Positions 24,001 to 27,000 of a DNA stretch of 64,000 nucleotides are shown here, in pieces. Position numbers: made by a program. Location of the stretch: the NCBI GenBank assembly GCA_943354835.1, contig CALRDH010000001.1, positions 115,005 to 179,004 on the forward strand, in the 5' to 3' direction. Position 1 is the stretch's first letter. Each line of letters opens with the position of its first letter. The DNA is from a candidate division WWE3 bacterium. Its GTDB lineage: Bacteria; Patescibacteriota; WWE3; 2-01-FULL-39-13.

Positions 24001-27000
24001 AAAAGCAGCTCCTGTTTCATCTATTACAGGATTGGCAGACAAGCCACAAACATTAATAGAAAGTCAGGTAGCACGTGGCCCACGCAGGATTAATGAAAGA
24101 AAATCAAACGGGAAAGGGAAAAAACAAATAATCGTTGGAATTCTAATGTTGATGGGAATAGGCTTTGCAAACTACAAGCTTTTTTATGAAAAGAAATTAA
24201 GCGCAAACGAAACCAACGTTAATGAGGTTGCATTCAATGTAAAAAACTACGAAATAGGAGAAGTTAAAGGTGAAAGTGATGAATCCCAAGAAACTGATTT
24301 ACACAAAGAAATAATAAAATTTTCAAAAATTGAAGAAGACGCTTTGCCAATATCAATGACAACGATAAGAAAAAATCTAGTAGTTTTAGACTCAACAAAA
24401 GATATTGCTTATAAAATAAACCTGGCCGATAAAAGTGTTTCGAAAATCGAATCAACATTATCAGCTCCTAAATTAATAAAATGCCAAATTCATATGAGTT
24501 CCGATAAGGATATTTGTTTCATGTACGGAAAAGATGGTTTCATAGTCTTTGATGCAAACAAAAAAGAAAACGAAATAGACAAATATTTTGTAGATCTTGA
24601 AAATGTTATTGATATATATCCATCTTGGGACATGCTTTATATTTTAACCGCGGATAATATTTATACGCATAAGATTGGTGAAAACACAGAATTAAAAAAA
24701 TGGCTGAAGGATGAAGCATTAAGTAATACAAAATCAATTGCAGTTGATTCTAATGTTTATATTCTTTCAAGTAATGATGTATACAAATATGCAAATGGAA
24801 AACTAGTAACATCATTTAAATTAGATAAATCAAAACTACAAAATCCAACACAAATAGAAATTACACAAAAATCAATATTTGTTCTTGATCAGAAAAAAAT
24901 TGTTGTTTTCAAAAAAATAAATGGAGAATTTGAAAGGGAAATTATTCTGGCAGGTGATACTGACCAAGATATTCCAACTTCATTTTCATTAACGAAAGAT
25001 GAGAATCCAAAAATTGTTTTTGAAAAAGGAAAGAGCGCATTTATAGTGGAGAAATAAAATGCCTACAATTACAAGAAATAGAAAAGCCTATCATGACTAC
25101 GAAATTATAGAAAAATACGAAGCAGGAATAAAGCTTTTCGGAAGTGAAGTAAAAGCAATAAAAGAAAACAAAGGTAATCTTAATGGAACTTATGTAAAAG
25201 GAACGGGCGGGAGGTTGAACCTTATTGGGTTCAACCTCCCGCCCTACTCAAAATCCGGAATCCTAATTGATTATGATCCAGCAAGATCACGACTTTTGCT
25301 TCTTACAAAAAAGGAGCTCGATTCCTTACTAGATAAAATAGAAAAGCAGGGTTTTACTTTAATTCCACTTAAATTTTATACAAAAGGTTCAATTATAAAA
25401 CTTGAAATCGGCCTCGCTAAAGGAAAAAAGAAAGGCGACAAAAAACGATCATTAATTGAAGCTCAAGAAAAAAGAGACATACAAAGAGACCTCAAAAACC
25501 AAAAACGGTAATAAACTTGTCCTAGCCTGTCATACTGGACAGTCCGAGTACATTTTGATATCATTACAACCAGTTTGGGGATGTCCAGGCATCGCCTAGA
25601 AGTAGAACCTTACAAATCAAGCAGACCTGATATAAGTCTTAAAACTGAATCAAAACATAAATGCAAAAAATGCAAACGTATTTGCTGACGCAGATGTAAA
25701 CGCCTACGCTTTTGCGTAAAACGAGATATTTGTACTAGGAATTATCCTTTCAGCGGGTTAGCCAATTTGGTTTTTGGATCCAAAGGCTAGCTTCAACCAA
25801 AACCGAAAGTCATTTTGCGACTTAAAGCAAGAAATCATTATGTGAACAAAAAGATTTTTGACCTATCCGTTCACATTTATAAAAGGCCAATAAGCTTGTA
25901 AAAAATTTGTTAGAAGAAACTTTTAGCACGGGGGTTCGATTCCCCCCATCTCCACCATATAAGGAATTTAGCCGAAATTTCATTTCAATAAAAGACATTT
26001 AAATCCAAAGTCAGATTATTTTATTATGCCTTATTCTCAAAATAGTATACGCAAGATATTCGGGTGTCGAAAGCATTTTTTCTTTTATAAAAATAACGAA
26101 AAAGCTATCATATAAGCAAAAACAAGTGGTGAGCATTATGATGCTGTTAATTTCCTTCATTGTAATGTAAGATTTTTATTACATTATGATGCAGGGCGAG
26201 TTAGACAACATATTAGACACAATCAAAAAGCTAAATCCATGGTTTAAAGATGGAAAAGTCCCGGAAAAATTAATTAAACCATACATCCGTCAAGAATTAA
26301 GCTTGATAAAAAAAACAATGACGAACACCGATCTAGCGACTCTTTTAATAGGAGGTCGAAGGGTAGGCAAAAGCATCTTACTTTATCAGTTAATAAACTC
26401 TCTGCTAGAAGACGGAGTAGAACAAAAAAGAATATTATTCATACAAGGAGATAATCCAATTCTCAGAGAGAGCATCAGCACAACTAATATACTCAGCACA
26501 GTCATAGGCGCTTATGAAAAATATATTCTAGATGAAGATATATCGGAAACAGAAAACCCTATATATATTCTTTTAGACGAAGCACAAGCTCTACCAAACT
26601 GGGATGCAGAAATTAAAACACTGATAGACCTAAAATATAAGATTAAATTCTTAATCACGGGATCTTCGAGTAGCAAACTCAGAGAAGGAATTCAAACACC
26701 ATTAATCGGGAGGGTATATATAACGATACTCTCACCATTTAGTTTCAGAGATTTTCTAGGATACGAGTTAACAACAAAAACAAAAGCCAACAACGAAATA
26801 CTTAGTGAAGTAGATAGGATAAGAGAATCCTTTCAGGCCGCTTTATTAAAAGGAGATGTTTTTAAAATAAAGCAAAGTATAAAAGATATCACATTGATAC
26901 TTAATACTATCGATTTAGATCATTACTTTAACGAATATATACTCTATGGAGGGTTTCCGTATGTAATTGAAAATAGAAATAAGGAAGACACTTCAAAATA

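What the first reader, a model, noticed from the sequence alone, without database searches (positions are those of the whole stretch)
25205..25243. Perfect 17-bp GC-rich hairpin embedded in-frame in smpB
GGGCGGGAGGTTGAACC-TTATT-GGTTCAACCTCCCGCCC is a 39-nt perfect palindrome inside the smpB coding sequence, in a 35% GC genome. Chance expectation is far below 1e-4 per window. It encodes GGRLNLIGFNLPP exactly colinear with the conserved SmpB segment, so it is not a simple insertion. It resembles the GC-rich terminators of this genome (GGCGGGC-type stems). It sits 330 bp upstream of ssrA, so it could work as an attenuator or processing site coupling smpB and tmRNA expression, or as a recombination target.
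Basis: seen in the sequence. Interest (0 to 1): 0.55.

Follow-up and report, generated by a model that had tools for sequence, protein, structure and literature searches.

The report
Conserved GC-rich hairpin inside smpB
A very stable 17-base-pair stem-loop written into the coding sequence of the ribosome-rescue gene smpB of a tiny groundwater bacterium (candidate division WWE3) is real and kept by selection, and it most likely marks the end of the upstream gene's messenger RNA, a kind of signal already known from E. coli.

Summary
The hairpin is real. It lies in frame in smpB, which is colinear with solved SmpB proteins. It is not chance.

All 10 distinct smpB sequences of the same narrow WWE3 clade (SmpB at least 83% identical) keep it, at -28 to -39.6 kcal/mol. 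One internal pair switches between G-C, C-G and A-U through paired synonymous changes. GC at third codon positions is 0.86 inside against 0.21 outside. WWE3 orthologues at 63% identity or less use AT-rich codons and have no hairpin.

It is not unique. The window holds seven GC-rich perfect hairpins, five of them with a GGCGG...CCGCC base. Three sit 15-40 nt after stop codons. Four lie 66-357 nt inside genes (smpB, recX, nrdJ, a class I tRNA synthetase) that abut or overlap a co-directional upstream gene. None has a sense-strand U-tract.

This anatomy matches the 3' protective hairpins of differential operon decay, which are often embedded in the downstream ORF (Dar & Sorek 2018). I read it as a new member of that known kind, with function inferred, not shown. 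ssrA has its own conserved promoter-like element, so coupling to tmRNA is not supported.

The parts
25205..25221 (+). 5' arm of the hairpin (GGGCGGGAGGTTGAACC). It covers the third base of codon 49, codons 50-54 (GGRLN) and the first base of codon 55 of smpB.
25222..25227 (+). Spacer or loop TTATTG. U25222 and G25227 can pair in RNA, leaving a 4-nt loop.
   Evidence: U-G in 10 of 10 sequences in the fixed register
25228..25244 (+). 3' arm (GGTTCAACCTCCCGCCC). It covers codons 57-62 (GFNLPP), the more widely conserved SmpB peptide, written with G/C at all six third positions.
25059..25511 (+). smpB coding sequence (150 aa) that hosts the hairpin 146 nt from its start.
23213..25057 (+). Upstream co-directional gene (614 aa, no Pfam match) whose stop codon ends 1 nt before the smpB ATG. 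This is the transcript segment the hairpin would delimit or protect. The arrangement is conserved in relatives.
25536..25564 (+). Promoter-like element directly upstream of ssrA (TGGACA-17-TATCAT, with TG before the second hexamer), conserved in relatives.
25577..25957 (+). ssrA (tmRNA), tag peptide AKNANVFADADVNAYAFA.
12498..12533 (+). Same class, in an ORF: 16-bp perfect hairpin (GGCAGGCATCCAAAAG...) 160 nt into recX. recA (11257-12372) overlaps the recX start by 35 nt.
18733..18765 (-). Same class, in an ORF: 14-bp perfect GGCGGC... hairpin 357 nt into nrdJ, downstream of nrdR (19151-19594). Conserved in L135 and L138.
63159..63186 (-). Same class, in an ORF: 12-bp perfect hairpin 66 nt into a class I aminoacyl-tRNA synthetase gene whose start overlaps the stop of an upstream solute-binding-protein gene by 4 nt.
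15084..15109 (.). Same class, intergenic: 11-bp GGCGGGCGGCA hairpin between the convergent HU gene (stop at 15059) and an S26-like gene (stop at 15124). Conserved in L135 and L138; L138 has a C-G to T-A double change.
16532..16557 (-). Same class, intergenic: 11-bp GGCGGCGCCGA hairpin 40 nt after the nrdJ stop. Conserved in L135 (with double changes) and L138.
39664..39689 (-). Same class, intergenic: 11-bp GGCGGGCAACC hairpin 24 nt after the stop of ORF 39713-40066(-).

Best explanation
The hairpin is a selected cis-acting stem-loop. It belongs to a class of GC-clamped (GGCGG...CCGCC), U-tract-less perfect hairpins that in this genome sit just downstream of co-directional genes. The upstream 614-aa gene ends 1 nt before the smpB start, so there is no intergenic space and the hairpin is written into the first third of the smpB ORF. 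The conserved peptide GFNLPP is spelled with G/C-ending codons to form the 3' arm. The locally variable segment upstream has been re-coded to GGRLN to form the 5' arm.

Inferred mechanism: in the polycistronic RNA the hairpin acts as a transcript-boundary element. It would serve as a barrier to 3'-to-5' exonucleases, and possibly as a weak pause or termination site. It would define a stable 3' end for the upstream gene's message, so that full-length smpB mRNA is less abundant than the upstream message. This is differential operon decay or attenuation.

Shown: the structure, its conservation, its covariation, the synonymous-site constraint, the class and its positions.

Inferred: action at the RNA level, co-transcription of the two genes, and the effect on stability or abundance.
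For: Structure and selection:
- 17 perfect pairs, about -39 kcal/mol, z = -6.4.
- Kept in all 10 distinct clade sequences from independent samples, at -28.4 to -39.6 kcal/mol.
- 93% of pair cells are paired. The internal pair 33/60 is G-C in 7 sequences, A-U in 2 and C-G in 1, through paired changes at four-fold degenerate sites. The covariation score is reached by 4 of 500 shuffles.
- Synonymous codon divergence is 0.247 in the arms against 0.421 elsewhere. It is 0.077 once the covarying pair and the terminal codon are set aside.
- GC3 is 0.86 inside against 0.21 outside.
- Orthologues at 63% identity or less have no hairpin at the homologous place.

Class:
- 10 perfect hairpins with stems of at least 10 bp against 0.9 expected; 5 GGCGGS...SCCGCC hairpins against 0.02 expected.
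- Three are intergenic, 15-40 nt after stop codons.
- Four lie in true coding sequence, 66-357 nt from the start of genes whose upstream neighbour is co-directional with a gap of 28 nt or less, or an overlap.
- The orthologous nrdJ and intergenic hairpins are conserved in other lineages, with double changes in the intergenic ones.
- No sense-strand U-tract.

Precedent: in E. coli, 3' protective hairpins of differentially decaying operons lack U-tracts. In 17 of 26 cases they lie 107 +/- 56 nt inside the downstream ORF. They are conserved and show raised wobble-position conservation (PMC5927463). A recA-recX boundary element with about 10% read-through is known in E. coli (PMC3542578).
Against: - There are no transcript data. 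RNA 3' ends, co-transcription and half-lives are untested.
- A perfect palindrome gives the same hairpin on both strands and in single-stranded DNA, so action at the RNA level on the sense strand is not proven. Informative non-Watson-Crick variants are few and mixed: G-U on the sense strand in L002, L139 and L140, but A-C on the sense strand (G-U on the antisense) in L142.
- Covariation rests on only two pairs.
- More distant WWE3 genomes have the same abutting gene arrangement without any hairpin, so the element is not required by that arrangement.
- For nrdR-nrdJ, the direction of the expected effect (less enzyme mRNA than repressor mRNA) is not obviously sensible.
- The positional argument (all four in-ORF hairpins in the first 32% of their genes, P about 0.01) is post hoc and rests on four cases.
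Confidence: 0.5

Rival explanations
1. arfA-like autoregulation of trans-translation. The hairpin would be an RNase III cleavage or premature-termination site that turns smpB mRNA into a non-stop message. Ribosomes on that message would be rescued by tmRNA-SmpB itself, tying SmpB synthesis or mRNA fate to rescue capacity.
For: In E. coli arfA, an inverted repeat inside the ORF is cleaved by RNase III and also causes premature termination, producing a non-stop mRNA controlled by trans-translation (PMC3989581). The smpB stem is the longest of the class (17-18 pairs) and lies in a ribosome-rescue gene.
Against: The same class of hairpin occurs in recX, nrdJ, a tRNA synthetase gene and intergenic spacers, with stems of 11-16 bp. 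A smpB-specific logic is therefore not needed. Cleavage at codons 49-62 would leave a 50-60-residue fragment of a 150-residue single-domain protein, unlike ArfA, whose truncated product is the active form. No RNase III data are available.
Confidence: 0.12
2. A DNA-level palindrome with no RNA role. Either it is a stem-base-specific binding or cleavage site for a hairpin- or cruciform-recognising protein, or it was created and kept perfect by intrastrand template switching (quasi-palindrome correction).
For: The palindromes are perfect. The G-C to C-G double transversion in L002 is easier to obtain by templated copying than by two independent mutations. L139 differs from the window at only 2 of 453 nt, both in the arms, which suggests local hypermutability or error. 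The shared GGCGG base across stems of different length and sequence would suit recognition of a folded stem base. The left arm could have arisen in a single copying event from the conserved right arm.
Against: Template switching does not explain G/C at all six third positions of the right arm in a genome with GC3 of about 0.22, nor raised GC3 in all four in-ORF hairpins. It does not explain the low synonymous divergence, nor the placement downstream of co-directional genes. AT-rich palindromes should dominate under a purely mutational process, yet the longest ones are GC-rich. The arms are single-copy, so this is not a REP- or MITE-like family.
Confidence: 0.2
3. An intrinsic terminator for antisense transcription entering smpB from the ssrA side.
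For: The consensus scan calls it a terminator on the minus strand, with stem followed by GTTCCTTTTA. Relatives carry minus-strand PIN/MazE genes downstream of ssrA.
Against: The T-rich tail comes from the Val-Lys-Gly codons and is not kept next to the stem in L005, L006, L140 or L143. A terminator placed there would still allow antisense transcription across all of ssrA and two thirds of smpB. In the window the gene downstream of ssrA is on the plus strand. Terminator-like sites are not enriched over shuffles in this genome.
Confidence: 0.05
4. An incidental by-product of codon choice and protein constraint, with no function.
For: Orthologues at 46-63% identity encode the same or nearly the same right-arm peptide (GFNLPIY, GFNLPPY, GFNIPPY) with AT-rich codons and no hairpin.
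Against: Chance expectation is far below 1e-3 per window. The hairpin is conserved in 10 of 10 clade sequences, with compensatory changes and synonymous constraint. It is one member of a class that is strongly over-represented.
Confidence: 0.02

Closest known systems
3' protective RNA hairpins of differential operon decay (E. coli, Salmonella, Enterobacter; Dar & Sorek 2018, PMC5927463; prototype malE-malF REP stabiliser)
   Same: A stable hairpin at the boundary of two co-directional genes, with no U-tract, embedded in the 5' part of the downstream ORF (146 nt here, against 107 +/- 56 nt). It is conserved in relatives with raised wobble-position conservation.
   Different: It is much more extreme than the published examples appear to be: 17 perfect pairs, about -39 kcal/mol, in a genome of about 34% GC. 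It belongs to a local class sharing a GGCGG...CCGCC base. It is found in a CPR (WWE3) bacterium where nothing is known about RNA decay. No 3'-end or half-life data exist here.
arfA in-ORF stem-loop (RNase III site and premature terminator that yields a non-stop mRNA under tmRNA control; PMC3989581)
   Same: An inverted repeat inside the coding sequence of a ribosome-rescue gene, with a functional link to trans-translation that is at least conceivable.
   Different: The arfA stem has mismatches and lies near the 3' end, so the truncated protein is active. Here the stem is perfect, lies at codons 49-62 of 150, and has siblings in unrelated genes.
Canonical intrinsic (Rho-independent) terminators and intra-operon attenuators such as the recA-recX terminator of E. 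coli (PMC3542578; bioRxiv 10.64898/2026.05.29.728758)
   Same: A GC-rich stem placed after a gene. One sibling sits exactly at a recA-recX junction, where about 10% read-through is known in E. coli.
   Different: There is no U-tract on the sense strand, which current models treat as a defining element. It also lies inside an ORF.
Repeated palindromic elements (REP/BIME with RAYT transposases; Rickettsia palindromic elements inserted in frame in genes) - compared from my own knowledge of those families
   Same: A GC-rich palindrome. Rickettsia elements also lie in frame inside protein-coding genes.
   Different: The arm sequence is single-copy in the window. It adds no residues to SmpB. Orthologous positions are conserved instead of mobile.

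Membership tests
3' protective hairpin of differential operon decay (Dar & Sorek 2018) | An energetically stable hairpin, well above the genomic background | tested here: met
   About -39 kcal/mol; z = -6.4 against shuffles. Homologous segments of more than 100 other smpB genes fold at -0.5 to -23.5 kcal/mol.
3' protective hairpin of differential operon decay (Dar & Sorek 2018) | Lies at the boundary of two co-directional genes, commonly about 50-160 nt inside the downstream ORF | tested here: met
   146 nt into smpB. The upstream gene ends 1 nt before the smpB ATG. The published figure of 107 +/- 56 nt is.
3' protective hairpin of differential operon decay (Dar & Sorek 2018) | Not followed by a uridine tract | tested here: met
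   The sense-strand tail is UACUCAAAAUCC.
3' protective hairpin of differential operon decay (Dar & Sorek 2018) | Conserved in related genomes, with raised conservation at wobble positions | tested here: met
   10 of 10 clade sequences keep it. Synonymous divergence is 0.247 (0.077 without the covarying pair and terminal codon) against 0.421 elsewhere.
3' protective hairpin of differential operon decay (Dar & Sorek 2018) | RNA 3' ends map just downstream of the hairpin, and the upstream segment has a longer half-life than the downstream one | not testable with these tools
   No transcriptome data can be reached with these tools.
Intrinsic (Rho-independent) terminator | GC-rich hairpin | tested here: met
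   12 of the 17 pairs are G-C.
Intrinsic (Rho-independent) terminator | U-tract immediately 3' of the stem on the transcribed strand | tested here: not met
   None on the sense strand. The antisense tail GTTCCTTTTA is not conserved next to the stem in L005, L006, L140 or L143.
arfA-type in-ORF RNase III site or non-stop switch | An inverted repeat within the ORF of the regulated gene | tested here: met
arfA-type in-ORF RNase III site or non-stop switch | Cleavage by RNase III or premature termination that produces a non-stop mRNA | not testable with these tools
   This needs RNA end mapping or an in vitro cleavage assay.
arfA-type in-ORF RNase III site or non-stop switch | The truncated product is the functional or regulated species | tested here: inconclusive
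   Truncation at codons 49-62 would remove about 60% of the single SmpB domain. That makes a functional fragment unlikely, but it was not tested.
REP/BIME-like or MITE-like repeated palindromic element | Many copies of the same sequence in the genome | tested here: not met
   The arm has no other match in 64 kb with up to 3 mismatches. Other hairpins of the class share only the GGCGG base. Only the window was searched, not the whole genome.
Rickettsia-type palindromic element inserted in frame | Adds extra residues relative to orthologues | tested here: not met
   Gap-free alignment to solved SmpB chains and to 26 orthologues across this segment.

The most novel reading that the evidence does not exclude
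The GGCGG...CCGCC-clamped perfect hairpins could form a lineage-specific cis-element system read by a dedicated factor that recognises the folded stem base. The factor could be an RNA-binding protein, a nuclease or a termination factor of this WWE3 clade. Selection for the element would then be strong enough to overwrite protein sequence in housekeeping genes. In smpB, the usual Gly/Asp/Asn-Glu turn would have become Gly-Gly-Arg. In smpB specifically, the longest stem of the class might additionally couple SmpB synthesis to trans-translation, in the manner of arfA.
Probability: 0.15. Interest if true: 0.65.

Novelty: new member of a known kind. Interest (0 to 1): 0.4.

Why it matters
It shows that a streamlined CPR genome with almost no intergenic space can place strong RNA-structure signals inside coding sequence. 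The cost is rare GC-rich codons and altered residues in a conserved protein. If the inferred role holds, operon reshaping by protective hairpins, so far mapped mainly in enterobacteria, also operates in uncultivated Patescibacteria. These hairpins could then serve as computational markers of transcript boundaries in genomes for which no transcriptomes exist. On the practical side, the palindrome breaks or corrupts metagenome assemblies at smpB.

Tried and rejected
- Rfam scan of 24800-26200 at a permissive threshold: only tmRNA, and nothing at the hairpin.
- Other copies of the arm in the window: none. REP/MITE readings dropped.
These were useful only as a negative control for a hairpin at the homologous site.
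- Canonical terminators: hairpin-plus-T-run sites are not enriched over shuffles anywhere in 1-60000, so the class is not ordinary terminators.
- GGCGG as a genome-wide uptake-like signal: the pentamer is no commoner than other G/C pentamers. Rejected.
- -1 frameshifting (A_AAA_G, then a 5-nt spacer, then the stem). This was reasoned from the aligned sequences. The slippery motif is lost in L002 and L143 (GTG AAA, GTG AAG), and reading the sequence in the -1 frame reaches a stop after about 23 codons. Rejected.
- Translational bypass of the T4 gene 60 type (GGA take-off at codon 48 and GGA landing at codon 67). There is no stop after the take-off codon, and the segment between encodes conserved SmpB residues. 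Rejected.
- Hairpin relocated from an ancestral intergenic spacer: distant WWE3 loci (L088, L089, L032) also have abutting genes and no hairpin within 1.5 kb on either side. Not supported.
- An smpB promoter-like site at 25020-25047 is conserved, but it overlaps conserved coding sequence and would put the Shine-Dalgarno sequence upstream of the transcription start. Left uninterpreted.
- Literature searches for terminators or hairpins in CPR/Patescibacteria found nothing relevant.
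Full report
**Observation.** The sequence at 25205-25244 reads GGGCGGGAGGTTGAACC-TTATTG-GGTTCAACCTCCCGCCC. The repeat finder reports arms 25205-25221 and 25228-25244, 17 nt, 100% complementary, 6 nt apart. As RNA, the flanking U and G add a wobble pair, giving 18 pairs and a 4-nt loop. The 151-nt context folds at -53.3 kcal/mol (z = -6.4, none of 200 shuffles as stable), and the hairpin alone at about -38 to -39.6 kcal/mol. The arm has no other match in the window even with three mismatches, where 0.01 are expected. 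Perfect hairpins with stems of at least 12 bp are expected 0.025 times per window.

**Genomic context.** The element lies in smpB (25059-25511; Pfam SmpB E = 3e-45). It covers codons 49-62 (T-GGRLNLIGFNLPP). The protein aligns without gaps to solved SmpB chains across this segment, so this is not an insertion. ARAGORN and Rfam place ssrA at 25577-25957. The closest named SmpB belongs to a candidate division WWE3 bacterium.

**Comparative evidence.** A protein search found only five clusters at 83% identity or more; the next relative is at 63%. I recovered DNA for ten distinct smpB sequences of this clade from independent ENA, JGI and Logan assemblies.
- All ten keep the hairpin, at -28.4 to -39.6 kcal/mol.
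- The internal pair formed by the third position of Gly51 (GGN) and the third position of Leu60 (CUN) is G-C in seven sequences, A-U in two and C-G in one.
- The terminal pair is G-C, U-A or G-U in six sequences and unpaired in four.
- Overall, 93% of pair cells are paired, against 38-61% when the partner is slid by 1-3 columns.
- The covariation score is reached by 4 of 500 shuffles.
- In the P0002 lineage, three changes at the apex (AAC to AGC, AUU to AUA, GGG to GGC) re-form the top of the stem in a shifted register, at about -38 to -39 kcal/mol depending on the segment folded.

Covariation alone is modest, because only two pairs show double changes. Two further lines of evidence add to it:
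- Synonymous codon divergence is 0.247 in the arms against 0.421 in the rest of the gene. It falls to 0.077 once the covarying pair and the terminal codon are set aside.
- GC at third codon positions is 0.86 inside the hairpin against 0.21 outside.

**More distant orthologues.** WWE3 orthologues at 46-63% identity (L088, L089, L032) encode GFNLPIY, GFNLPPY or GFNIPPY with AT-rich codons. They fold at -6 to -8 kcal/mol at the homologous place. More than 100 smpB genes from other phyla fold at -0.5 to -23.5 kcal/mol there. The right arm encodes the conserved peptide GFNLPP. The left arm covers a segment that varies among WWE3 proteins, and here it has become GGRLN in place of the common x-G/D/N-E motif. 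The hairpin is therefore a lineage-specific gain that has since been maintained, at some cost in codon usage and protein sequence.

**It is one of a class.** A scan of the window for perfect hairpins finds 10 with stems of at least 10 bp (0.9 expected) and 5 with stems of at least 12 bp (0.025 expected). Seven of these are GC-rich and form the class. Five start GGCGG(G/C) and end (G/C)CCGCC, where 0.02 are expected. All three GGCGGG hexamers in the window are 5' arms of such hairpins, although GGCGG itself is not an over-represented pentamer.

Three hairpins are intergenic and lie 15-40 nt after stop codons:
- 15084-15109, between the convergent HU and S26-like genes
- 16532-16557, after nrdJ
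- 39664-39689, after ORF 39713-40066

Four lie in genuine coding sequence:

| Host gene | Distance into the ORF | Upstream co-directional neighbour |
|---|---|---|
| smpB | 146 nt | 614-aa gene, 1-nt gap |
| recX | 160 nt | recA, overlaps the recX start by 35 nt |
| nrdJ | 357 nt | nrdR, 28 nt upstream |
| class I tRNA synthetase | 66 nt | solute-binding-protein gene, 4-nt overlap |

All four lie in the first 32% of their ORFs (about 0.01 by chance, a post-hoc figure). All four show raised GC3, 0.54-0.86 against 0.21-0.29. None has a sense-strand U-tract.

The orthologous nrdJ in-ORF hairpin and the two neighbouring intergenic hairpins are conserved in the P0002 and P0003 lineages. The arms of the nrdJ hairpin are invariant amid variable synonymous sites, and the intergenic stems show double changes. 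Hairpin-plus-T-run sites are not enriched over shuffles in this genome, so these are not ordinary intrinsic terminators.

**Mechanism.** The anatomy matches a class described experimentally in E. coli: the 3' protective hairpins of differentially decaying operons. Those hairpins are unusually stable and lack the U-tract. In 17 of 26 cases they lie 107 +/- 56 nt inside the downstream ORF. They are conserved in Salmonella and Enterobacter and show raised wobble-position conservation (PMC5927463). The recA-recX sibling also fits a junction where a boundary element giving about 10% read-through is known in E. coli (PMC3542578).

I therefore propose that the smpB hairpin delimits and stabilises the upstream gene's transcript segment and lowers the relative abundance of full-length smpB mRNA. 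Action at the RNA level, co-transcription and the effect on decay are all inferences. A perfect palindrome folds identically on both strands and as single-stranded DNA, and the few non-Watson-Crick variants do not settle which strand matters.

**ssrA.** A promoter-like element, T(G/A)GACA-17-TAT(C/T)AT, lies directly upstream of ssrA. It is conserved in the five relatives' sequences aligned, which represent the P0001-like and P0002 lineages plus one near-identical contig. In those two lineages the smpB stop codon lies inside the first hexamer.

**Rivals.**
- **arfA-like switch.** The model is an in-ORF stem cut by RNase III that yields a non-stop mRNA under tmRNA control (PMC3989581). It is attractive because of the host gene and the long stem. 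It is made unnecessary by the siblings in unrelated genes, and it would yield a fragment lacking most of the SmpB domain.
- **DNA-level explanation.** Template-switch correction of quasi-palindromes, or a protein that binds a folded stem base, would account for the perfection of the stems. It would also account for the double transversion and for the fact that L139 differs from the window only at two arm positions. It does not explain the G/C-ending codons, the synonymous constraint or the placement near gene boundaries.
- **Antisense terminator**. Its T-tail is not conserved.
- **Chance.** Excluded.

**Verdict.** The hairpin is a selected element and a striking example of a known kind, in a poorly known lineage and with an unexplained shared GGCGG stem base. 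Its function remains inferred.

Noticed in passing
window 12498-12533, 15084-15109, 16532-16557, 18733-18765, 39664-39689, 63159-63186: Six further GC-rich perfect hairpins (11-16 bp stems). Four share the GGCGG...CCGCC base. Three lie inside recX, nrdJ and a class I tRNA synthetase gene, and three lie just after stop codons.
   Followed up: yes
L090 (start), L112 (end), P0128 (protein starting in the hairpin): Several metagenome contigs of this clade begin or end inside the smpB hairpin, so the palindrome breaks assemblies. P0130 looks frameshifted or garbled across the same segment.
   Followed up: partly
L139:1001-1453 against window 25059-25511: The two smpB genes differ at only 2 of 453 nt (gene positions 154 and 174). 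Both changes are in the hairpin arms and both weaken pairing. This is either local hypermutability or polymorphism, or an assembly error caused by the palindrome.
   Followed up: partly
window 25512-25576; L001, L002, L141, L143 equivalents: The ssrA promoter-like element is conserved. In relatives the smpB stop codon TAG lies inside the first hexamer (TAGACA). The window and L139 carry an extra 27 nt at the end of smpB, ahead of the promoter-like element.
   Followed up: partly
L137:1630-3981 against window 16597-19122: The P0001 lineage has a smpB 93% identical to the window's, but its nrdJ is only about 44% identical in the segment compared and lacks the in-ORF hairpin. It also has an extra NUDIX gene in place of the nrdJ-end hairpin. 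This is probably a gene replacement.
   Followed up: partly
window 26186-27676; L135:10941-11623; L137:11063-12256: The region just downstream of ssrA varies. The window has a DUF4143/AAA_14 ATPase; relatives have PIN plus MazE-like toxin-antitoxin pairs and AbiEii. This is consistent with island insertion at the tmRNA gene.
   Followed up: no
window 12809-12840: A second perfect palindrome in recX: 13 bp, AT-rich (GAAGAAATATCAA / TTGATATTTCTTC), -13.4 kcal/mol. Roughly 0.02 of that stem length are expected per window (my estimate from base composition).
   Followed up: no
L084 (uncultured Clostridiales smpB), homologous segment: The next most stable fold at the homologous smpB position among more than 100 other bacteria is -23.5 kcal/mol, in an imperfect hairpin of a gene segment with GC about 0.51. 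It may be chance.
   Followed up: no
window 25196-25204 and 18766-18778(-): Both the smpB and nrdJ in-ORF hairpins are preceded on the sense strand by AAAGGAA (Shine-Dalgarno-like), 2-4 nt upstream of the stem. recX and the synthetase gene have GAGGG and GGGAG 8-9 nt upstream. The significance was not assessed.
   Followed up: no
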